The notes under the pieces: model-generated | Database searches by the model: none | What the model was told of the DNA's origin: nothing | What the model saw: the letters and a program-made list of their open reading frames with translations, nothing else | Assembly (NCBI GenBank): GCA_003525075.1 | Contig: DQFO01000014.1 | Span: 64,032-128,031 of the forward strand | DNA: 64,000 nt | From: Clostridiales bacterium | Lineage (GTDB): Bacteria; Bacillota; Clostridia; TANB77; CAG-508 | Direction: 5' to 3' | Made by a program: the position numbers and the translations under genes | Shown here: in pieces, positions 9,572-28,460 of the stretch | How the letters are laid out: each line of letters begins with the position of its first letter | Numbering within the stretch: the first letter of the stretch is position 1

Positions 9572-9667
9572 TTCTTCCTTTTCCTTTCGCCATTCATCCC
9601 TCTGTTTTTTATCTTCTACATTCTATCTTTAAATTGCTTATTTGTCAATAAATGGGCTTCAAAAAAA

Positions 9668-9706
9668 AGAATTACATAGAAAATAATTCTCTATGTAATT
9701 CTTTTA
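9668..9706. terminator. Intrinsic terminator hairpin (A-run/T-run flanked, bidirectional shape)
   Basis: 13-bp perfect stem agaattacataga (9668-9680) / tctatgtaattct (9690-9702) with a 9-nt loop. An A8 run precedes it and TTTT follows. Confidence 0.6.
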
Positions 9707-10111
9707 TTAATTCATACTATTATCAACTGAAAAAGACCCATTTGATAATTCTATATATCCAGCTCCAGAACCAATTCCTTGTGATTCCATATTTATATTT
9801 TTTAATACTTCATTCATTGTAATTATTTTATCTGTTGTTTTGGCAGTTTCATATGCTGGATTCTTATATGATAACTTTTCCTTTATTTTTTAATGAATAT
9901 AGATAGTCTGTAGTCCATCTTCTGTTTCTTGCAAATAATTACTAGAATTATAGTCATCTAATAAAAAATTCAAATACTCTTTTGCTTTTCCTTCTTCATT
10001 TGCTTCTTTTGATCTTGCTACAATTCCATTCTTTCAAGTCAATGCATTTATTGTAGTTCCAGCAAAAACCAACATAATAACTATTGTTACTGCAAGAGTT
10101 ATTAGTGTCAT
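9707..10111 (-). pseudogene. Decayed pilin/pseudopilin-like gene (type IV pilin-like N-terminal helix) with in-frame stops
   Basis: My own translation gives MTLITLAVTIVIMLVFAGTTINALT*KNGIVARSKEANEEGKAKEY...TIYIH*KIKEK...GYIELSNGSFSVDNSMN*. The in-frame TGA at 10034-10036 sits where related proteins have the G of the LTGENGI motif. A TAA lies at 9890-9892. There is no prepilin leader and no ORF in the track. Confidence 0.55.
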
Positions 10112-10157
10112 CCCATCTTTTGTTATTATCCCATTTTCTCCTATTCTAATACCACTT

Positions 10158-11138
10158 TTAGTATCTGTATTTTAAATATGAAATTATTGGAAAGTGAAAC
10201 AATGCAATTTCTCTTATCATTTTCTTTCCTTGATTTTTTCCTGACAAAATTTTGAAATAGTCTCCTATATTTTTAATATTTATTTTCTTTGTTTTATATA
10301 TTTCATTATAATAATTTATTGCTTTTTGGCAAAATTCTAAATCTATTTTTTTATTTGCATATTGTTCACACATCTTTATTCCACCATCATATGCCCTTTT
10401 TATAGCATCTTCTCTGTATTTTAAGAATGCATCATAACTATTACCATTCTTCTCTTTCCATCTATTCAAATTTTGATTTAAACTTCGTCCTCCAAAAACA
10501 TTTGAATTATGTAATCTATAATCAAATAATTCTTCTTTTATATAGTCTATTCCCTTTCCTTCATTTGCAATAAAAGCTGCTAACCAATCATGTGCAATTA
10601 CTTTAGATTTAAATGGTATCATCTTTTCTTTAACTGATTTAGTTATTATTTGAGAACATCCAATCCCAACACATCTTGATATTGCCAATTTGTCATTCCC
10701 TTTTACTAATGGTACATTTTTATATTTGAAATAGTTGTCTCTTAGCACAATTCCATCTTCATCTATTTGCCTACAATTGCAATAAACCATATCAACATCT
10801 TTGTCTTTTAATAATTTTAGGCTTTTTTCTACTTTATCTTTATGCCAAACATCGTCATGATCTGAAAACATTATATAATTTGCTGTAGATTGTTGTAACA
10901 AAAATTCAAAATTTTTATTATATCCTAAATTTTGAGGTTGCAAAAATAATCTTATTCGATTATCATTTTTTTCATACTCTTCTAGTAATTCCTTTATTTC
11001 ATTTTTATTTGAATTGTCATCACTTATATATATTTTTATATTTTTATATGTTTGTCTTAATATACTTTCAATTTGTTTTTTTAGATATTTTTCATTTGTA
11101 TTATATGTTGTAACTAATATATCTACTACTTCGTCCAT
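10158..11138 (-). CDS. Glycosyltransferase family 2 (paralog of 7770-8756)
   Basis: VDILVTTYNTNEKYLKKQIESILRQTY...ISDDNS and SDHDDVW. Same architecture and length as 7770-8756. Confidence 0.8.
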   Translation of the reverse strand: MDEVVDILVTTYNTNEKYLKKQIESILRQTYKNIKIYISDDNSNKNEIKELLEEYEKNDNRIRLFLQPQNLGYNKNFEFLLQQSTANYIMFSDHDDVWHKDKVEKSLKLLKDKDVDMVYCNCRQIDEDGIVLRDNYFKYKNVPLVKGNDKLAISRCVGIGCSQIITKSVKEKMIPFKSKVIAHDWLAAFIANEGKGIDYIKEELFDYRLHNSNVFGGRSLNQNLNRWKEKNGNSYDAFLKYREDAIKRAYDGGIKMCEQYANKKIDLEFCQKAINYYNEIYKTKKINIKNIGDYFKILSGKNQGKKMIREIALFHFPIISYLKYRY

Positions 11139-11213
11139 TTTCCGCTCCCTTTTTTTATTTAATTGAATTTTAGCATATCTATTTTATAAAGTCAAATTCA
11201 TTTTACATAAACA

Positions 11214-11242
11214 TTGACATTTTTTTCTAATTATACTATAAT
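11214..11242 (+). promoter_or_regulatory. Sigma-70/SigA-type promoter, perfect consensus
   Basis: TTGACA (11214-11219), 17-nt spacer, TATAAT (11237-11242), 56 nt upstream of ATG 11299. Confidence 0.6.
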
Positions 11243-11298
11243 AATAATATAGGCTGATTTGCCTATTATAATTTTGTGGCCTACAAGGAGGGCTAATT

Positions 11299-11607
11299 AT
11301 GAGCATTTTTGAGAATGACGGAAACTACTACGCCAACTATTCTGTCCCTGCAATTTCTTTTTGCAACAGAAAAGCATCATCTGCCGAGTTCCGCAAATAC
11401 CTGGCCGAACATCCTTCTGTACAGGAAGATGTTCCGTCCTCTATTATGGAAGAACTCCAGAAGATGCCCAGCGCCAAACCCGCTGGTGCTGCCTACTATG
11501 CAACCCTGAACACTCAGCTGTTCACCAAGTTCTGCAAAGATGTGGCAACGGCGATGGTAGAGAAGTCTCGCGATCCTCAGTGTGTTATGGTCTTCTCTGG
11601 AAACTAA
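11299..11607 (+). CDS. Hypothetical 102-aa soluble protein on a GC-rich foreign island
   Basis: AAGGAGGG (11285-11292) lies 6 nt before the ATG. G+C is 24/60 for nt 11299-11358 and 29/60 for 11401-11460, against ~23% in the flanks. A hairpin terminator follows. No family recognised by eye, and no TM segment or signal peptide. Confidence 0.6.
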   Translation: MSIFENDGNYYANYSVPAISFCNRKASSAEFRKYLAEHPSVQEDVPSSIMEELQKMPSAKPAGAAYYATLNTQLFTKFCKDVATAMVEKSRDPQCVMVFSGN

Positions 11608-11637
11608 AATAGATTTTATATTTTAGTTTTTCACAAA

Positions 11638-11673
11638 AGCCCGCAGATGAAAAAAATCATCTGCGGGCTTTTT
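11638..11673. terminator. GC-rich bidirectional intrinsic terminator (serves the 102-aa ORF and convergent recO)
   Basis: 13-bp perfect stem agcccgcagatga (11638-11650) / tcatctgcgggct (11657-11669) with an A6 loop. A-run upstream and T-run downstream. Confidence 0.8.
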
Positions 11674-11676
11674 ATA

Positions 11677-12381
11677 TTATCTTTCTAATTTATCATCAAA
11701 ATATAATTTTGAAACAAGTTTTAATTCATTTAAAGATTCATCTTTTAAAGAAAATGAAAATAATTTTTTTGCTGGAGCCATAACAATATATCTAATCGCT
11801 GATACTGTACTTTCAGATATTGAAATTGCCCCTTTATCTAATCTTCCACAATTTTCACATTTAAAGCCATCATTTTTTAGACTAAAATACTTCAAATTAT
11901 TTTTTTCTTTACAATTTACACATTCCATAATTCTTGGTGTAAAACCAAGAAAGCATAATAATTTTAACTTAAATGTACTTATAACTAAATCTATATTTTT
12001 ATCTGTCTCTGATAAAGTATATAACGTATTTAATAACATTTGTAATATTTTATAACAATTTTCATTTTCATCAGTTACATCTCTTACAATTTTTGTAATC
12101 TCTATTGCATAATTAAGTTTATCTAAATCTGTTCTCAAATTATAAAAAACTTCAATAGTATCACAAGAATTTATATTATATGTATTTGACCCTTTATACA
12201 TCATATACTCTCCAAAACAAAATAACTGTGTTCCAGCTAGCAAGGCGCTTCTCGGACGCCTCGCCCCTTTAGCAACACACGATATCTTGCCTAATCCTGG
12301 AGTTAACATTGTAAGCATTTTGTCATAATCTCCTAAATTGCTTTCAGAGATTATTATCCCACTTGTTTTTATTGTCCCCAT
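11677..12381 (-). CDS. recO: DNA repair protein RecO
   Basis: 234 aa. The N-terminal OB-fold region contains VAKGARRPRSALLAG and the C-terminal zinc motif is CVNCKEK...CENCG. The era-yqzL-recO order is conserved in Firmicutes. Confidence 0.9.
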   Translation of the reverse strand: MGTIKTSGIIISESNLGDYDKMLTMLTPGLGKISCVAKGARRPRSALLAGTQLFCFGEYMMYKGSNTYNINSCDTIEVFYNLRTDLDKLNYAIEITKIVRDVTDENENCYKILQMLLNTLYTLSETDKNIDLVISTFKLKLLCFLGFTPRIMECVNCKEKNNLKYFSLKNDGFKCENCGRLDKGAISISESTVSAIRYIVMAPAKKLFSFSLKDESLNELKLVSKLYFDDKLER

Positions 12382-12511
12382 ATTTTTCCGCCTTTTGTTC
12401 CATATTATTATTTTGCAATTGTTCTTCTATTCCTTGAAATTGTTTTAATTCTAAAAATGTATTAACATCTCCTGTATTTTTAAATGTGTCCCATGCAATT
12501 TTTTTAATCAT
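12344..12511 (-). CDS. YqzL-like small protein (55 aa)
   Basis: My own translation gives MIKKIAWDTFKNTGDVNTFLELKQFQGIEEQLQNNNMEQKAEKYGDNKNKWDNNL. The W..F..TG.i..YL..K pattern matches the YqzL family found between era and recO. GGAAGTGAG lies upstream. It overlaps the recO start and is below the ORF-track length cutoff. Confidence 0.55.
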   Translation of the reverse strand: MIKKIAWDTFKNTGDVNTFLELKQFQGIEEQLQNNNMEQKAEKYGDNKNKWDNNL

Positions 12512-12576: not shown

Positions 12577-13476
12577 TTATAACTTGAATTTTTTTACAAC
12601 TGATGTATCATCAAGCCAATTTTCTTTAACTTTTACCCATGTTCTTAAATTAACTTTTGTTCCAAAGTTTCTTTCCATGTCAATTCTTGCTGATTGTCCA
12701 ATTCTTTTTAACATCGTTCCATCTTTTCCAATTATTATCCCTTTATGTGATTCTCTTAAACAATATATTGTTGCTTCAATATCATAAAATTCTTCTTTAT
12801 TCTTAGTTTTCTTTAATTTCATTTTTGTTACTTCTACATATATCCCATGTGGAACTTCGTCTTGTAAATACATTAATGCTTTTTCTCTTATTGTCTCTTC
12901 AGCAAGTTGCCTCATTGTCTGATCTGTATATTCTTCAACATCATAATATGCTGGCCCAGGCTTTAATACTTTTTCTATTTCATCTAATATAATATCTCTA
13001 TATTTTGATTTTATTGATGATACAGGAATTACAGCTTCAAAGTTATATTCTTTTTGATATAAATCAATTAATTTTAATAAACTCTCTTTTTTTACTAAAT
13101 CTATTTTATTAATAATTAATATTGCCTTTTTCTTAGATTCTTTAATCTTCTCTAAGATTCTCATATCTCCTCTTCCAATTTCATCACTTGTAGCTTCTAT
13201 AACAAATAATATTAAATCAATATCTTTTATTACTCCAAATGATGTTTCAATCATTGTTTCATTTAATTTTGTCTTTGGTTTATGAATTCCAGGAGTATCT
13301 ATAAATATGATTTGAGAATTTTCTCTATTTACAATACCTCTTATTGCAGTTCTTGTTGTTTGAACTTTATTTGCTGTTGCAGCTACTTTTTCTCCAACTA
13401 AGAGATTTACTAAAGTTGACTTTCCTACATTCGTTCTTCCTAGCATTGCTACAAATCCTGATTTAAATTCTGACAT
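12577..13476 (-). CDS. era: GTPase Era
   Basis: G1 GRTNVGKST, G3 DTPG and G4 NKID, with a C-terminal KH domain (IIGKDGTMLKRIG). Confidence 0.95.
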   Translation of the reverse strand: MSEFKSGFVAMLGRTNVGKSTLVNLLVGEKVAATANKVQTTRTAIRGIVNRENSQIIFIDTPGIHKPKTKLNETMIETSFGVIKDIDLILFVIEATSDEIGRGDMRILEKIKESKKKAILIINKIDLVKKESLLKLIDLYQKEYNFEAVIPVSSIKSKYRDIILDEIEKVLKPGPAYYDVEEYTDQTMRQLAEETIREKALMYLQDEVPHGIYVEVTKMKLKKTKNKEEFYDIEATIYCLRESHKGIIIGKDGTMLKRIGQSARIDMERNFGTKVNLRTWVKVKENWLDDTSVVKKFKL

Positions 13477-15773
13477 TATTCTTCCTCCATTTGTTTAACT
13501 GAATACTCTAAAACATTAATATTTTTTACAATTAATTTTGCTCCAATTTCCTCATCGTCTAATTTTCCTATTCTTATAACTTTTTTTGATTCTAATTTTA
13601 TGTCCATATCACTTAACTTAGCTATAATTCTAGTATCATTATCCATTCCAATTGGTAATGTTTTATTTTGGTTATCATAATATATACAATTAGAAAATGC
13701 TATAACATTTGAACCTTTTTCTAATTTTATTTTATATAAATTAATCTTACTATTTTCTGATTTTTCTGTTGCTTTTTTTACTTCATCTTCAGCATTTAAA
13801 TTAAATACATTTATTTTATTTGCATCAATACTTTCTCCATCTTCAGTCCACATATATGCAATAATGTCTTGACTTGTAGTTACTTTAGTAATTGCTTCAT
13901 TTATTCTCCAAATAACTTGACTAAGATTTACTTTATAATCAACAACTTTATATTGTTTTGCTAAACCTAATATTAGAAATTTATTTTTTGGATTTTCTCT
14001 ATGGGATTTATTATCTAATTTTTTTATTTTTCTCGTATCTTCTTCCAATCCTCCAAAAATATCAACTTCATCATCTAATCTTCCTTTTTGTTCCTTATAT
14101 TCAGCTTTCAATATTTTTAAATACTTATCCAATTCTTTAGGTTCTAATGAATTTGTCTTTAATTTATTTATTGGCTCTATTTGTTCTGTTGCTACCAAAA
14201 ATATAGAATCTAACTCTTCTTTATTTAATTTATTTCTTTGAACTTTATCCATCATAATGCCAAATTCTTCAAAATCTTCTTCAAACTCAAAAGTTTTGGT
14301 ATGTGGTTTTACATTTACAACTTCTTCTTCACCTTCTGCTAAAGACTTTACTTCATCTTTATTACTGTATTTCCAAAATTCAAATATACTCTTTTTATGA
14401 CTATCTATTTCAGCTATAAAAGCTGATGCATTTTCTATCTTTTTTGTTAAATTAACTTTCTTTAATTTTATTGCATTTATATCCATTTTTGTATTGTTAA
14501 ATTCTTTTTCTTTTTCTGCAGTCTCTTTTCCTTTTTCTAACAAATCGTCTAATGTATATTGTTTTTTTATTTTTTCTTCTTCATCTACTTCAGCTACTTC
14601 TTGTATTGTGTTATTTTCTTTTACTTCTGCTTCTTTTTTTGCTTCTTTCTTTTTCTTCTTTCCACTATATTTAAAGAAATATTTAACTTTTCCAAAAAAT
14701 GTTTTTTTACATTCTAAAAATGTTGAAATTTGTTTTTCTTTTTCTATATAATCTGCTTCAAGTTTTTCTGTTTCTTTTTTTAAAATTTCTAATTTATTTT
14801 TATATTCTATATTATTTTTTATATTTTCTTCTTCTATATCAATTAATTTTTTATATTGACTATTAATAAAGTCTGGTAGATCATCATATTTTAAAATTTC
14901 ATCTTGATAATAAAATTCTAGTTCTCCCTGTTTGTCTATTTGAACTTCAAATTTATAATACTCCGGAATTTCTGTTTGGAGTATATATAATGCTTTTACA
15001 AGTTTAAAAAATTTACTTGCATCTATTTTTCCGGTAAGTTTTACTTTGTATTCTGATTTTATTGTTCCTAAAACTTGAGTTTGTCCAATTATTTGTAATG
15101 ACACTTTCCCTGTTTTATCATAAACTTCATATATTGATGGCCAATCATTTGTAAATGTCCATAAATAATTTTCCAAGCTTTCAATTTCTGTTTTATTTAA
15201 TATTTCCTTTGAATAATCTATATTACTTATAGGAACAAATATCTTTCCAGCTTTCTTTTTTTCTAATTGTTTTTTTAATACATAAAAAAATGTTGAATAG
15301 TCTTTATCTTCAGTTGTTACTATCATAAAATATTTTTCATCATTTTCTGAATAATATATTTGCCATAAATAATTTTTTGGATATCTTATTTTGAAAGGAA
15401 TTTTTTTATTTAAATTTTGTTGTTGTTCTTCAATTTCTTTTATCTCATCTATATCAACTTCACTTAACATTCTTAAAAATTCTTCATGTAGTTGCTTTTC
15501 TTCTTCTGTTTTGGGATCTAAATATGAAACTAATGGTTTGGCCATAGAATATTTTGTTTTAGTATCTTCTAATCTATTACATGGTGATACCAATATTTCT
15601 AATTCTTTTGGTGATACAAATCTATATTGTTTATACTTATTTTCTTCAATTCCTGTATTAGGTCTAAAATTTATATTTTCAACATATTTTAATGTTTCAG
15701 GTATTTGTTCTAAATCTAAGCATATATATTCTAATTTTTCTGCTATTTCTTGTGCTATTTTTTTCTTTTCCAA
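13476..15773 (-). CDS. Hypothetical 765-aa protein with a central K/E-rich coiled-coil region, translationally coupled to era
   Basis: Long uninterrupted ORF. The TAATG stop/start overlap with era is at 13474-13478, and the era GGAGG lies inside its 3' end. No recognisable catalytic motif. Confidence 0.6.
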   Translation of the reverse strand: MEKKKIAQEIAEKLEYICLDLEQIPETLKYVENINFRPNTGIEENKYKQYRFVSPKELEILVSPCNRLEDTKTKYSMAKPLVSYLDPKTEEEKQLHEEFLRMLSEVDIDEIKEIEEQQQNLNKKIPFKIRYPKNYLWQIYYSENDEKYFMIVTTEDKDYSTFFYVLKKQLEKKKAGKIFVPISNIDYSKEILNKTEIESLENYLWTFTNDWPSIYEVYDKTGKVSLQIIGQTQVLGTIKSEYKVKLTGKIDASKFFKLVKALYILQTEIPEYYKFEVQIDKQGELEFYYQDEILKYDDLPDFINSQYKKLIDIEEENIKNNIEYKNKLEILKKETEKLEADYIEKEKQISTFLECKKTFFGKVKYFFKYSGKKKKKEAKKEAEVKENNTIQEVAEVDEEEKIKKQYTLDDLLEKGKETAEKEKEFNNTKMDINAIKLKKVNLTKKIENASAFIAEIDSHKKSIFEFWKYSNKDEVKSLAEGEEEVVNVKPHTKTFEFEEDFEEFGIMMDKVQRNKLNKEELDSIFLVATEQIEPINKLKTNSLEPKELDKYLKILKAEYKEQKGRLDDEVDIFGGLEEDTRKIKKLDNKSHRENPKNKFLILGLAKQYKVVDYKVNLSQVIWRINEAITKVTTSQDIIAYMWTEDGESIDANKINVFNLNAEDEVKKATEKSENSKINLYKIKLEKGSNVIAFSNCIYYDNQNKTLPIGMDNDTRIIAKLSDMDIKLESKKVIRIGKLDDEEIGAKLIVKNINVLEYSVKQMEEE

Positions 15774-27678: not shown

Positions 27679-27707
27679 TTGACACATTTCGATTTTTGGT
27701 ATATAAT
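27679..27707 (+). promoter_or_regulatory. Sigma-70/SigA-type promoter, perfect consensus, starting 3 nt after the PHP stop codon
   Basis: TTGACA (27679-27684), 17-nt spacer, TATAAT (27702-27707). A 76-nt leader runs to ATG 27784. Confidence 0.65.
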
Positions 27708-27783
27708 TAATATATTAACCCATTGTATGGATTTGCTATTCAAAAATCGGATAGTAAAAAACAATTTATGGAGGTATGGCACT

Positions 27784-28416
27784 ATGACTACTCGTTGGAT
27801 TGCTGTTACTGGCTTGGACGGAAGTGGCAAAACCACTTTGGTCGACAATCTCGTTAAATTTCTCGAATCTAAGGGATTCAAGGTTTACCGGGATCGTTTC
27901 CCCCACGATAAGTATTTGACCAAGACTCTCTTGAATGAGAGCAAGGATGCTTATACTGATCGTCTGCTCTTTGCACTGGATAATCGCATCGCGGGTACTC
28001 ACCTGCGTGGCATCATTGAGACTGGTGAATATGATTTCATAGTTACTCAGCGTTGTTTCCTGGACAGTTTTGTCCATGGTGCAGTTCAGGGCTATTCCTA
28101 TTCTTGGGTGTCTGAACTCAATCATGTCAGAGATCTTCCCAAGTGTGACATTATGGTCCACATGGTCGCAGAAGCCCGCATCGCGTATGCGCGCATTTGC
28201 AATGATCCTGATGCTGATAAGTTCGAATATCCTGAATACATCGGCAAACAAGAGCAAGAAACCCGGCGGGCATATGTTGAAGTTGAAGCGCATAACAATC
28301 CTGCACTCATCCACTTTAACACTTGCCAAAACATCTACATGGACACCACTCAGATGTCCACTGATGAGGTCTTCGAAACGGTAAGCTCTAAGCTCGTTAA
28401 GATGCTCAACCTCTAA
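27784..28416 (+). CDS. Thymidylate-kinase-like P-loop nucleotide kinase (divergent), on a GC-rich foreign island
   Basis: GGAGG (27770-27774) lies 9 nt before ATG 27784. The ORF-track start at 27679 is the TTG of the -35 box. Walker A IAVTGLDGSGKTT is Tmk-type, and LLFALDNR resembles Tmk LLFxADR. The DRY/DRH position reads TQRCF. 29/60 G+C in the first 60 nt. Confidence 0.75.
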   Translation: MTTRWIAVTGLDGSGKTTLVDNLVKFLESKGFKVYRDRFPHDKYLTKTLLNESKDAYTDRLLFALDNRIAGTHLRGIIETGEYDFIVTQRCFLDSFVHGAVQGYSYSWVSELNHVRDLPKCDIMVHMVAEARIAYARICNDPDADKFEYPEYIGKQEQETRRAYVEVEAHNNPALIHFNTCQNIYMDTTQMSTDEVFETVSSKLVKMLNL

Positions 28417-28421
28417 AAAAT

Positions 28422-28460
28422 AAAGCCCAAGTAGCGTATACGTTACTTGGGCTTTATTTT
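28422..28460. terminator. GC-rich bidirectional intrinsic terminator between convergent genes
   Basis: Stem aaagcccaagtagcg / cgttacttgggcttt (15 bp including one G-U) with a tata loop. A-run before and T-run after. Confidence 0.8.

What the first reader, a model, noticed from the sequence alone, without database searches (positions are those of the whole stretch)
11205..11676. Second GC-rich single-gene cassette encoding a 102-aa orphan protein
Seen: this cassette lies between the divergent GT2 gene (start 11138) and convergent recO (stop 11677). It has a perfect TTGACA-17-TATAAT promoter (11214-11242) and AAGGAGGG 6 nt before ATG 11299. The ORF is 102 codons long. A 13-bp perfect GC-rich hairpin (11638-11673) flanked by A- and T-runs follows. 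G+C rises from about 23% in the flanks to 24/60 (nt 11299-11358) and 29/60 (nt 11401-11460). All three forward frames are open across the island, which is typical of foreign GC-rich DNA in an AT-rich host. Only the 11299 frame has an RBS. The protein (MSIFENDGNYYANYSVPAISFCNRKASSAEFRKYLAEHPSVQEDVPSS...) has no TM segment, signal peptide or motif that I recognise. Inference: it is an acquired or inserted orphan gene with its own expression signals. It could be a small regulator, an inhibitor or anti-defence type protein, or a partner of the kinase cassette.
Basis: partly seen in the sequence, partly recalled or inferred. Interest (0 to 1): 0.75.

Follow-up and report, generated by a model that had tools for sequence, protein, structure and literature searches.

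The report
Hypervariable GC-rich small protein gene
This is a real, strongly expressed small-protein gene from an undescribed family that occupies a single chromosomal slot in one group of uncultured gut Clostridia, is not recent foreign DNA, and exists as deeply diverged, recombining alleles whose GC-rich codons this AT-rich genome has not erased.

Summary
ORF 11299-11607 (+, 102 aa) has a perfect TTGACA-17-TATAAT promoter, an AAGGAGGG ribosome-binding site, a strong terminator and about 48% GC in a 25% GC genome.

It encodes a protein and is not a structured RNA. Substitutions fall at third codon positions, indels are in-frame, dN/dS is 0.1-0.4, and no RNA structure is conserved in the body.

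It is not a recent foreign insert. About 40 relatives exist among billions of proteins. All examined sit in the same slot between recO and a GT2 glycan gene, in one genus-level clade of uncultured gut Clostridia. Subfamilies track host clades, and empty sites are interleaved among carriers.

The family shares an invariant K-P-x-G-x-x-Y-Y-x-x-L motif that caps a long helix. The rest is hypervariable. In sister species, strains with 99.8% identical flanks carry alleles 5-10% apart. In the window's lineage, a divergence peak is centred on the gene.

GC3 stays at 0.28-0.54 (host about 0.15) despite saturated synonymous divergence. The near-perfect promoter, 5'-terminal hairpin and terminator are conserved throughout.

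Function is unknown. My best guess is an abundant binding protein under balancing selection, of the immunity or defence type. The kinase-partner idea is not supported.

The parts
11167..11195 (-). Predicted promoter of the divergent GT2 glycan operon (TTGACT-17-TAAAAT with an upstream TG), inside the island's left arm
   Evidence: Consensus scan only. The 160-nt GT2-ORF spacer is nearly invariant among window, L001 and L005 and among about 20 strains. In empty-site species GT2 starts 6-166 nt after recO, with no such spacer.
11214..11242 (+). Perfect sigma-A-type promoter TTGACA-17-TATAAT
   Evidence: It is one of only two perfect matches in the 64-kb window (expected 0.07). An 11-12/12 promoter with 17-nt spacing is conserved at the same distance from the ATG in every subfamily.
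11249..11266 (+). Stem-loop at the 5' end of the transcript (ATAGGC-N6-GCCTAT), beginning about 7 nt after the -10 box. Probable mRNA stabiliser.
   Evidence: It is conserved through compensatory and wobble changes within subfamily A. A hairpin with a completely different sequence sits at the same position in subfamilies B and C and in L011, L012, L044 and L082. The transcription start and the stabilising role are inferred.
11285..11292 (+). Shine-Dalgarno sequence AAGGAGGG, 6 nt before the ATG
   Evidence: GGAGG or GAGG is conserved in all subfamilies.
11299..11607 (+). Coding sequence, 102 aa: subfamily A of a new small-protein family. GC 0.48, GC3 0.53.
   Evidence: Third-position excess of substitutions and an in-frame indel. 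dN/dS 0.09-0.41. GC3 0.53 against 0.12-0.18 in host genes. Homologues only in the same slot.
11476..11508 (+). Codons for the family-invariant core K60-P-A-G-A-A-Y66-Y67-A-T-L70, which starts the long predicted helix (residues 64-91)
   Evidence: Invariant or nearly invariant columns in alignments A2, A3 and A6. This is the only high-confidence segment in both AlphaFold models.
11635..11672 (.). Bidirectional intrinsic terminator shared with the convergent recO
   Evidence: Compensatory stem changes occur in L005, L097 and L008. Strong terminators follow the gene in all subfamilies.

Best explanation
SHOWN.
- This is a genuine protein-coding gene for a small (82-132 aa), soluble protein with no signal peptide.
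- It belongs to a previously undescribed family restricted to one genus-level clade of uncultured gut Clostridia.
- It always sits in one chromosomal slot, convergent with recO and divergent from the first GT2 gene of a cell-envelope glycan and ABC-exporter cluster.
- It is an old resident that has been lost repeatedly.
- It exists as deeply diverged allele classes that are reshuffled by short-tract recombination, and the divergence peaks on the gene itself.
- Every subfamily keeps the same expression design: a near-perfect sigma-A promoter, a 5'-terminal hairpin, a strong SD and a strong terminator.
- Every subfamily also keeps a GC-rich, non-host codon usage.

INFERRED.
- The cassette is built to deliver a stable, abundant mRNA and protein.
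- The protein works by binding. The invariant K-P-x-G-x-x-Y-Y-x-x-L helix cap and the N-terminal aromatic/Ser motif would dock onto a conserved cellular component.
- The hypervariable residues next to the motif and along the C-terminal helix would face a rapidly changing antagonist, such as a phage protein or a competitor's toxin.
- Rare alleles would therefore be favoured, and old alleles would be kept. This would make it a single-gene immunity- or defence-type determinant.
- The GC-rich coding body is maintained in place, either by selection (for example an mRNA poor in AU-rich nuclease entry sites) or by GC-biased repair during frequent allelic conversion. It is not a relic of recent transfer.
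For: Coding: codon-position differences of 6/6/20, in-frame indels, dN/dS 0.09-0.41.

Not an RNA: no Rfam match over the body. RNAalifold keeps only the 5' hairpin, the SD stem and the terminator, with a covariation term of +0.86.

Restricted family: 6 hits in an exhaustive phmmer search of 1.84 billion representatives, one of them spurious. A profile search finds 36 proteins with no Pfam domain or name.

Same slot: every context examined.

Phylogenetic pattern: subfamilies follow the era+recO tree, with at least 20 interleaved empty sites.

Invariant motif. The confident helix starts at the YY in both models.

Within-species hot spot:
- Subfamily B: ORF 5.5-10.2% against about 0.2% in the flanks (p 5e-20 and 4e-41), with mosaic haplotype blocks and pN/pS 0.93-1.74.
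- Subfamily C: 9/267 in the ORF against 0-0.6% in most flanking segments, p 2e-7.
- Ts:Tv 25:41 in the ORF against 58:16 in the flanks, p 1e-6.

Window lineage: against L129, pS is 0.026 (ABC2), 0.44 (GT2), 0.77 (orphan) and 0.25 (recO).

Composition: GC3 0.28-0.54 in all members against about 0.15 in the host. Synonymous sites are saturated among subfamily A members. Codon usage is uncorrelated with host or highly expressed genes.

Expression design is conserved in all subfamilies, with hairpins of unrelated sequence. Perfect promoters occur only at the two GC-rich cassettes.
Against: - There is no functional evidence of any kind and no homology to known immunity, defence or anti-defence proteins (PADLOC, Pfam, PHROGs, PDB).
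- No partner or toxin gene is adjacent.
- Both structure models are weak (pTM 0.30 and 0.27), so the binding-helix picture is soft.
- In the window's own species about 14 closely related strains carry essentially one allele. The ORF differs by 0.7%, no more than GT2 (0.7%) or recO (0.5%). Balanced polymorphism is therefore demonstrated in sister species and through L129, not as a general property.
- Between-species dN/dS below 1 shows constraint, not positive selection.
- Within-species pN/pS near 1 is also what relaxed constraint would give.
- The test of whether GC is being maintained or is decaying was inconclusive. S>W:W>S was 20:14, 19:15 and 6:5, not distinguishable from the flanks' own per-site ratio.
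- The well-conserved kinase cassette is equally GC-rich, so GC richness cannot simply be a by-product of hypervariability.
- Expression has not been measured.
Confidence: 0.4

Rival explanations
1. Recently acquired foreign single-gene cassette. GC-rich DNA from a higher-GC donor or a phage landed between recO and GT2 with its own promoter and terminator, and its composition simply has not yet been worn down to host values.
For: The anatomy matches an autonomous cassette with atypical composition. Empty sites exist in related species. Some members have lower GC3 (0.28-0.37), as partial decay would give. The L005 lineage shows S>W 15 against W>S 4.
Against: No donor was found: nothing in phages, plasmids or viral contigs, or outside this clade, in 1.84-5.8 billion proteins. 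The slot is the same and the subfamilies are congruent with the host tree. Synonymous sites are saturated between members that still have GC3 of 0.4-0.5. No integrase, repeats or target duplications mark the junctions. The flanking promoter and terminator are AT-rich and host-like.
Confidence: 0.08
2. Accessory or regulator and insulator of the neighbouring cell-envelope glycan operon. The island supplies a terminator that uncouples the GT2/ABC-exporter operon from era-recO, together with a dedicated divergent promoter. The small protein would modulate that operon or its enzymes. Its diversity would hitch-hike with, or co-evolve with, a serotype-like variable glycan locus.
For: The gene is always adjacent to and divergent from GT2. 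In empty-site species GT2 follows recO by 6-166 nt with no terminator or promoter. The glycan side shows its own deep, flat divergence (GT2 dN 0.16-0.19 against every other species) and variable gene content. Against L129, divergence is also high in GT2 (pS 0.44).
Against: No DNA-binding or other known domain is present. Many species run the same GT2 cluster without the gene. Within subfamily B and C species, GT2 is 99.4-100% identical between strains whose orphan alleles differ by 3-10%. The diversity is therefore centred on the orphan and not on the glycan genes.
Confidence: 0.2
3. Weakly constrained, fast-evolving lineage-specific gene with no arms race. A young, dispensable ORF sits behind a very strong promoter in head-on orientation. 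Transcription-replication conflict or another local process raises its mutation rate, and relaxed constraint does the rest.
For: The gene is dispensable, having been lost repeatedly. Within-species pN/pS is about 1. dN is roughly 5-13 times that of recO and GT2, and dS only 1-2 times, at short range. The orientation is opposite to nearly all neighbours, on a strand with steadily negative GC skew. The promoter is very strong. Third-position composition is near uniform, as an unbiased local mutation process would give.
Against: Alleles are discrete blocks that recur in many independent samples, not private mutations. Runs of adjacent changes and Ts/Tv of 0.6 at only 5-10% divergence point to conversion from old alleles. 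The invariant motif and the conserved expression architecture survive over deep divergence. Between-species dN/dS of 0.1-0.4 shows real constraint. About 14 close strains of the window's species show no excess at all, which argues against a constantly raised mutation rate. The equally head-on, equally GC-rich kinase is well conserved.
Confidence: 0.17
4. Structured non-coding or dual-function RNA. The GC-rich island would be an RNA gene, as GC-rich islands in AT-rich genomes often are, and the ORF would be incidental or secondary.
For: It is a promoter-to-terminator unit with GC well above the background. The whole transcript folds with z = -6.96 and the body alone with z = -2.82 on the + strand.
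Against: No Rfam family matches the body and there is no tRNA or tmRNA. The body fold is not conserved and has no covariation support. Conservation has 3-nt periodicity with an invariant peptide motif. The minus strand folds almost as well (z = -1.27). Much of the z-score comes from the terminator and from mixing AT-rich and GC-rich segments in the shuffles.
Confidence: 0.03

Closest known systems
Prophage 'morons' (autonomous promoter-gene-terminator units of atypical composition inserted between phage genes; concept recalled from the lambdoid-phage literature, not retrieved here)
   Same: The anatomy is the same: one gene, its own sigma-70-type promoter, its own intrinsic terminator, nucleotide composition unlike the surroundings, and presence or absence between otherwise collinear genomes.
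   Different: It lies between chromosomal housekeeping genes (recO, era) and a glycan operon, not in a prophage. No homologue occurs in 50,697 phage records or 2.9 million viral contigs. It is inherited vertically within one host clade.
Orphan immunity genes of polymorphic-toxin or bacteriocin systems, and other balanced-polymorphism loci (pherotype peptides, defence-island genes)
   Same: It is a small, soluble, dispensable protein with deep allele classes on near-identical backgrounds, mosaic recombination, a divergence peak centred on the gene and atypical composition.
   Different: There is no adjacent toxin, receptor, processing enzyme or defence partner. No known immunity or defence domain is present. 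The gene occupies one fixed slot and not an island or array. The link is by evolutionary behaviour only.
Diversity-generating retroelement (DGR) variable regions
   Same: Variability is confined to a short stretch of one ORF, partly in its 3' half, with a GC-rich hairpin just downstream.
   Different: Changes affect all four bases, with no adenine specificity, and include indels and runs of adjacent changes. Alleles are discrete and shared between samples. No template repeat exists in the 64-kb window.
5'-terminal stem-loop mRNA stabilisers of Gram-positive bacteria (for example the ermC and aprE leaders; recalled from established knowledge of 5'-end-dependent decay by RNase J and RppH)
   Same: A 6-8-bp hairpin lies within a few nucleotides of the predicted 5' end, followed by a strong SD. 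Its structure is conserved although its sequence is not.
   Different: The transcription start and the stabilising effect are predicted, not measured. Here the hairpin comes with a GC-rich coding body, which is not part of the classical examples.
The window's second GC-rich cassette, a thymidylate-kinase-like P-loop protein (27784-28416)
   Same: It has an identical design: the only other perfect TTGACA-17-TATAAT in the window, a strong SD, GC3 of 0.50, a GC-rich terminator, and opposite orientation to its neighbours. Its codon usage correlates with the orphan family (r = 0.51) and not with the host.
   Different: It has a recognisable fold family (PF02223, 35.6 bits). Its family is much broader and well conserved (more than 300 proteins at 60-100% identity). 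Nothing indicates a functional partnership.

Membership tests
Prophage moron | Autonomous transcription unit: own promoter, single gene, own terminator | tested here: met
Prophage moron | Located within a phage or prophage genome, between conserved phage genes | tested here: not met
   The flanks are recO/yqzL/era and a GT2/ABC-exporter cluster in all loci. No phage or viral homologue was found.
Prophage moron | Nucleotide composition unlike the surrounding genome | tested here: met
   GC 0.48 against 0.25, and GC3 0.53 against 0.12-0.18.
Recent horizontal acquisition (genomic islet) | Patchy distribution incongruent with host phylogeny, or a closer relative in another lineage or mobile element | tested here: not met
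   Subfamilies are congruent with the era+recO tree. No relative was found outside the clade.
Integron gene cassette | attC recombination site, a nearby integrase, and a usually promoterless ORF | tested here: not met
   The gene has its own perfect promoter. The only inverted repeats are the 5' hairpin and the terminator. No integrase is among the flanking genes.
DGR variable region | Adenine-specific substitutions relative to a nearby template repeat, plus a reverse transcriptase | tested here: not met
   All substitution types and indels occur. No second copy lies in the 64-kb window. The rest of the genome was not searched for a reverse transcriptase.
Structured non-coding RNA (any Rfam family) | Match to a covariance model, or a conserved secondary structure with covariation | tested here: not met
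   Only weak terminator matches, all below gathering scores. The body structure is not conserved.
Polymorphic-toxin immunity protein | Small cytoplasmic protein showing strong allelic diversity | tested here: met
Polymorphic-toxin immunity protein | Cognate toxin gene adjacent, or membership of a known immunity family or orphan-immunity array | tested here: not met
   It is a single gene between recO and GT2, with no Pfam or PADLOC match.
Polymorphic-toxin immunity protein | Protects against a specific toxin | not testable with these tools
   This needs an experiment.
WXG100 / EsxA-like secreted helical hairpins | Sequence-profile similarity, about 100 aa, helix-turn-helix with a central W-x-G | tested here: not met
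No PF06013 hit. The models show no confident hairpin.
Functional partner of the thymidylate-kinase-like cassette | Matching phylogenetic distribution of the two families | tested here: inconclusive
   The kinase family has more than 300 clusters and the orphan family about 40, which argues against obligate partnership. Genome-by-genome co-occurrence could not be computed.

The most novel reading that the evidence does not exclude
The family would be a new kind of single-gene, chromosomally fixed immunity or defence determinant kept under long-term balancing selection. Its GC-rich coding body would be a compositional island created and maintained in place in a 25% GC genome. The cause would be either GC-biased repair at a gene-sized recombination hot spot or selection for an mRNA that escapes AU-directed nucleases. 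The kinase cassette shares the same design (perfect promoter, 5' hairpin, non-host codons, head-on orientation). That would point to a general, undescribed expression strategy in these reduced gut Clostridia.
Probability: 0.2. Interest if true: 0.75.

Novelty: new variant of a known kind. Interest (0 to 1): 0.6.

Why it matters
GC-rich islets in AT-rich genomes are routinely read as recent horizontal transfer or as RNA genes. Here both readings fail. The gene is an old, vertically inherited, protein-coding resident that has kept foreign-looking codons through saturating divergence.

If the composition is maintained in place, the locus becomes a compact natural test case, about 300 bp with sharp edges. 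It could separate two explanations for bacterial base composition: GC-biased gene conversion and selection on mRNA properties.

The gene is also a gene-sized peak of allelic diversity in abundant but uncultured human-gut bacteria. That marks an unknown interaction, possibly with a phage or a competitor, and could serve as a strain marker.

The invariant KPxGxxYYxxL motif gives a concrete handle for finding the binding partner.

Tried and rejected
- Known RNA family: an Rfam E-value scan over 10500-12500 gave only weak, sub-threshold terminator look-alikes, and ARAGORN found nothing.
- Conserved mRNA body structure: rejected by RNAalifold on eight subfamily A sequences.
- Protein family libraries: Pfam, NCBIfam, PHROGs and PADLOC gave no match passing a curated cut-off. 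There was only a sub-threshold DUF5647 hit at 15 bits and one chance Cas3f hit.
- Solved structures: the PDB sequence profile search gave a best E of 0.36, a T4 RNA-polymerase-binding protein at chance level. Foldseek against PDB gave 0 hits. I did not run AFDB searches because both models are low-confidence.
- WXG100/EsxA similarity: rejected.
- Phage, plasmid or viral origin: no hits. The viral scan with the family alignment could not run because no stretch was conserved enough.
- Silent donor copies or a DGR template in the window: none.
- Mobile-element scars at filled and empty junctions: none seen.
- Translational selection as the cause of the GC-rich codons: rejected, because tuf, fusA and the rps genes have GC3 of 0.13-0.18 and use none of these codons.
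- Polarised W/S substitution test for GC maintenance: inconclusive.
- Multiple alignment of 27 loci: it produced artefactual divergence in rearranged distal regions. Only the GT2-to-yqzL columns were used, and L129 was re-done pairwise.
- Literature searches for a precedent: nothing relevant.
- L007/P0004: its apparent frameshifts go with single-base indels in the promoter and terminator too, so I treated it as a low-coverage assembly error.
Full report
**Observation.**
- ORF 11299-11607 (+) encodes the quoted 102-aa protein.
- TTGACA-17-TATAAT lies at 11214-11242 and AAGGAGGG ends 6 nt before the ATG.
- A 16-bp hairpin with a T run lies at 11635-11672.
- GC in 100-nt windows rises from 0.13-0.26 to 0.40-0.53.
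- The perfect promoter is not a chance feature of AT-rich DNA. Only two perfect copies occur in the 64-kb window (0.07 expected), and they precede the two GC-rich cassettes, at 11214 and 27679.

**RNA or protein?** A promoter-to-terminator GC-rich islet in a 25% GC genome could be a structured RNA, so I tested that first.
- Rfam finds nothing over the body, only sub-threshold terminator look-alikes, and there is no tRNA or tmRNA.
- The transcript folds better than shuffles: z = -6.96 for the whole unit and -2.82 for the body alone. The opposite strand gives -1.27.
- On eight subfamily A sequences, RNAalifold retains only the 5' hairpin, a small stem around the SD, and the terminator. The covariation term is +0.86, so the body fold is not conserved.
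- Substitutions against L005 fall 6/6/20 on codon positions of the 11299 frame.
- The only clean indel is an in-frame 3-nt insertion, and dN/dS within subfamily A is 0.09-0.41.

**Where else it occurs.**
- A word-indexed search of 5.8 billion proteins returned 5 relatives.
- An exhaustive phmmer search of 1.84 billion representatives returned 6, one of them a spurious repeat protein.
- A profile built from divergent members returned 36, none with a Pfam domain or a name.
- Phage, plasmid and viral collections hold nothing.
- Every genomic context I examined is the same: GT2 gene (-), this gene (+), then recO, yqzL and era (-).
- The hosts are uncultured gut Clostridia MAGs with small AT-rich genomes. 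One complete relative is 1.55 Mb.

**Empty sites and phylogeny.**
- I fetched recO loci from 80 species representatives.
- About a dozen have a GC-rich (0.43-0.52) islet with a small convergent ORF just after recO.
- More than 20 have recO followed by GT2 after only 6-166 nt.
- The islet ORFs look unrelated at first sight, but they form one family with three main subfamilies:
  - A: about 100 aa, the window's type.
  - B: about 127 aa.
  - C: 82-88 aa, ending FPERKKR.
  - There are also odd forms in L011, L012 and L044, and in L082/L095, where two copies are in tandem.
- On an era+recO tree each subfamily occupies its own host clade, and empty-site species are interleaved.
- The simplest reading is presence in the ancestor of a genus-level clade, vertical descent and repeated clean loss.
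- In the outgroup clade recO is followed by hpf instead of GT2, and the family is absent.
- No repeats or scars at the junctions suggest a mobile element.

**The protein.**
- The invariant or nearly invariant positions are K60, P61 (in most members), G63, Y66, Y67 and L70 in window numbering. Together they form K-P-x-G-x-x-Y-Y-x-x-L.
- There is also a looser N-terminal aromatic/Ser motif and a proline near the C-terminus.
- Two AlphaFold models, one for the window protein and one for subfamily B, are weak overall (pTM 0.30 and 0.27).
- Both models show a disordered N-terminus and short helices. Each has one confident long helix (pLDDT 80-90) that begins at the YY.
- The proteins are hydrophilic, have no TM segment and vary in pI from 5.5 to 9.6.
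- No similarity was found to known families, defence proteins, solved structures or EsxA.

**Evolutionary behaviour.** This is the unusual part.

*Subfamily B (one species).*
- Three alleles sit on backgrounds that are about 99.8% identical over roughly 4.9 kb on each side. The ORF differs at 21 and 39 of 384 sites (p = 5e-20 and 4e-41).
- The differences form shared haplotype blocks. L088 and L102 differ only at ORF positions 237-374. L103 adds a second block at 63-193, including an in-frame deletion.
- They include runs of adjacent changes (AACCA to TGACT), affect all base types and give pN/pS of 0.93-1.74.
- Each allele recurs in many independent samples.

*Subfamily C.*
- The result replicates: 9 of 267 sites differ, 8 of them within about 25 nt just upstream of the invariant motif.
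- Most flanking segments differ by 0-0.6% (p = 2e-7). One 161-nt intergenic stretch upstream of GT2 is the exception, at about 5%.

*Substitution spectrum.*
- Pooled Ts:Tv is 25:41 inside the ORF and 58:16 in the flanks (p = 1e-6).
- This fits short-patch conversion between old alleles. It does not fit fresh point mutation or DGR-type adenine mutagenesis. No silent copy exists in the window.

*The window's own species.*
- One allele dominates. Among about 14 close strains the ORF differs by 0.7%, similar to GT2 (0.7%) and recO (0.5%).
- Strain L129 carries an alternative allele class with 67% amino-acid identity.
- Against L129, synonymous divergence is 0.026 in ABC2, 0.44 in GT2, 0.77 (saturated) in the orphan and 0.25 in recO. 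That is a peak centred on this gene.
- Against the next species, L008 and L009, orphan synonymous sites are saturated (pS 0.71-0.80), while recO pS is 0.32-0.42 (dS 0.42-0.62) and era dS is 0.50-0.60.
- At short range (L001, L005) dS is only 1-2 times that of the neighbours, but dN is about 5-13 times that of recO and GT2.

**Composition.**
- The GC excess is largely synonymous. GC3 is 0.53, against 0.12-0.18 in all host genes tested, including tuf, fusA, rpsG and rpsL.
- The codons used (CTG, GCC, CCC, ACC, GTC, CGC, CAG) make up at most 1% of their synonymous sets in tuf, fusA and the rps genes. In the three neighbouring genes they reach at most 10% (CAG).
- All family members have GC3 of 0.28-0.54.
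- Family codon usage correlates with the kinase cassette (r = 0.51). It does not correlate with host genes (0.15) or with highly expressed host genes (0.10). Third positions are nearly uniform.
- Members with saturated synonymous divergence still have GC3 of 0.4-0.5. Simple decay of an ancient foreign gene therefore does not fit, and translational selection for host-preferred codons is excluded.
- A polarised W/S substitution test could not separate maintenance from slow decay.
- The GC elevation stops at the ORF boundaries. The UTRs and the neighbouring gene ends are AT-rich.

**Expression design.** Every subfamily keeps the following:
- An 11-12/12 sigma-A promoter with 17-nt spacing, with the -10 box ending 49-61 nt before the ATG.
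- A 6-8-bp hairpin at the predicted 5' end, whose sequence is unrelated between subfamilies. Within subfamily A it varies by compensatory changes.
- A GAGG or GGAGG Shine-Dalgarno sequence.
- A strong terminator.

The terminator is bidirectional and also serves recO. The left arm of the islet carries a predicted promoter for the GT2 operon. In empty-site species that operon abuts recO. The gene, like the kinase cassette, is oriented against almost all its neighbours on a strand with steadily negative GC skew. I infer that it is head-on to replication.

**Interpretation.**
- Shown: it is a real, old, position-locked, dispensable small-protein gene with conserved high-expression signals, an invariant short motif, deep recombining allele classes and a persistent non-host composition.
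- Inferred (confidence about 0.4 for the whole picture): it is an abundant binding protein. Its invariant helix cap would contact a conserved partner and its variable surface would face a fast-evolving antagonist. Alleles would be kept by frequency-dependent selection, which would make it an immunity- or defence-type determinant.
- Rivals:
  - An accessory, regulator or insulator of the adjacent glycan operon (0.2).
  - A weakly constrained gene with a locally raised mutation rate (0.17).
  - A recent foreign cassette (0.08).
  - A structured RNA (0.03).
- The cause of the GC richness is unresolved. The well-conserved kinase cassette shares it, so it is linked to the cassette design and not to hypervariability as such.

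**Comparison with known systems.**
- By anatomy it is closest to prophage morons, but it fails the defining phage context.
- By behaviour it resembles orphan immunity genes and other balanced-polymorphism loci, but it lacks any partner or known domain.
- It fails the tests for DGR targets, integron cassettes, Rfam RNAs and WXG100 proteins.
- I rate it a new variant of a known kind: a hypervariable accessory gene in an undescribed protein family, with an unexplained compositional feature.

**Caveats.**
- All sequences are metagenome assemblies.
- Expression, the transcription start and the protein itself are predicted, not observed.
- The structure models are weak.
- The strongest within-species evidence comes from sister species, not from the window's own dominant allele.
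- The taxonomic placement rests on record titles only.

Noticed in passing
window 27679-28452: There is a second cassette with the same design. It has the window's only other perfect TTGACA-17-TATAAT (27679-27707), a GGAGG SD, and ORF 27784-28416 (210 aa). The ORF is thymidylate-kinase-like (PF02223, 35.6 bits) with GC3 of 0.50. A GC-rich terminator lies near 28424-28452, and the gene is on the + strand against its neighbours. Its family is broad (more than 300 clusters at 60-100% identity) and well conserved, unlike the orphan family.
   Followed up: partly
window 13476-15773 (-): A 765-aa Lys/Glu-rich protein with no Pfam domain lies downstream of era. It differs by about 15% at the nucleotide level between the window and L001 or L005, while era differs by 3-5%. 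Part of this may be an alignment artefact from indels (765 against 769 aa).
   Followed up: no
window 9572-10157: There is a 586-nt stretch without a long ORF between the ABC2 permease gene and GT2. L001 carries a 581-aa gene at this position and L005 has only about 200 nt. The glycan cluster therefore varies in gene content between close strains.
   Followed up: no
window 10158-11138 and orthologues: The GT2 gene next to the orphan is nearly identical within the window's close strains. Against every other species, from L008 onward, it jumps to a flat dN of 0.16-0.19 and dS of 0.74-1.06, unlike the graded divergence of recO and era. The glycan side of recO may therefore have its own history of allelic replacement.
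   Followed up: partly
L095 5001-5258 and 5496-5711 (also L082, L096): One species carries two tandem family members in the slot, of 85-88 aa and 71 aa. The second is truncated just after '...IDLKITKR', before the YY motif.
   Followed up: no
L085 and L053, first ~350 nt downstream of recO: In the outgroup clade, where recO is followed by hpf, the spacer holds GC-rich palindromic repeats. One example is GAACCCCCAGTC...GACAGC(C/T)CCCTTA, present twice in L085. They look like REP- or MITE-like elements or stacked terminators.
   Followed up: no
L016 and L031, recO-GT2 gap: Two 'empty' sites contain a short GC-rich direct repeat, GGACCGTCCCCTT twice in L016. It could be a remnant of a lost islet or of a terminator.
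   Followed up: no
P0011, P0019, P0026, P0032; L088 4950-5384: Some database gene calls for subfamily B begin at an upstream in-frame ATG (MYAGKIPVNIYFKEVSS...). That start lies inside the promoter and 5'-hairpin region, so these are probably mis-called starts. The SD-preceded ATG gives 127 aa.
   Followed up: partly
window 12344-12511 (-): A 55-aa YqzL-like ORF (PF14006, 22.8 bits, below the cut-off) lies between era and recO and overlaps the start of recO. It is very highly conserved at synonymous sites between close species: dS is 0-0.17 where recO has 0.06-0.62.
   Followed up: no
L010, downstream of recO: This species sits inside the subfamily A clade but has neither the orphan nor GT2 after recO. 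Instead it has a run of terminator-like hairpins and an unrelated convergent gene, which indicates a local rearrangement.
   Followed up: no
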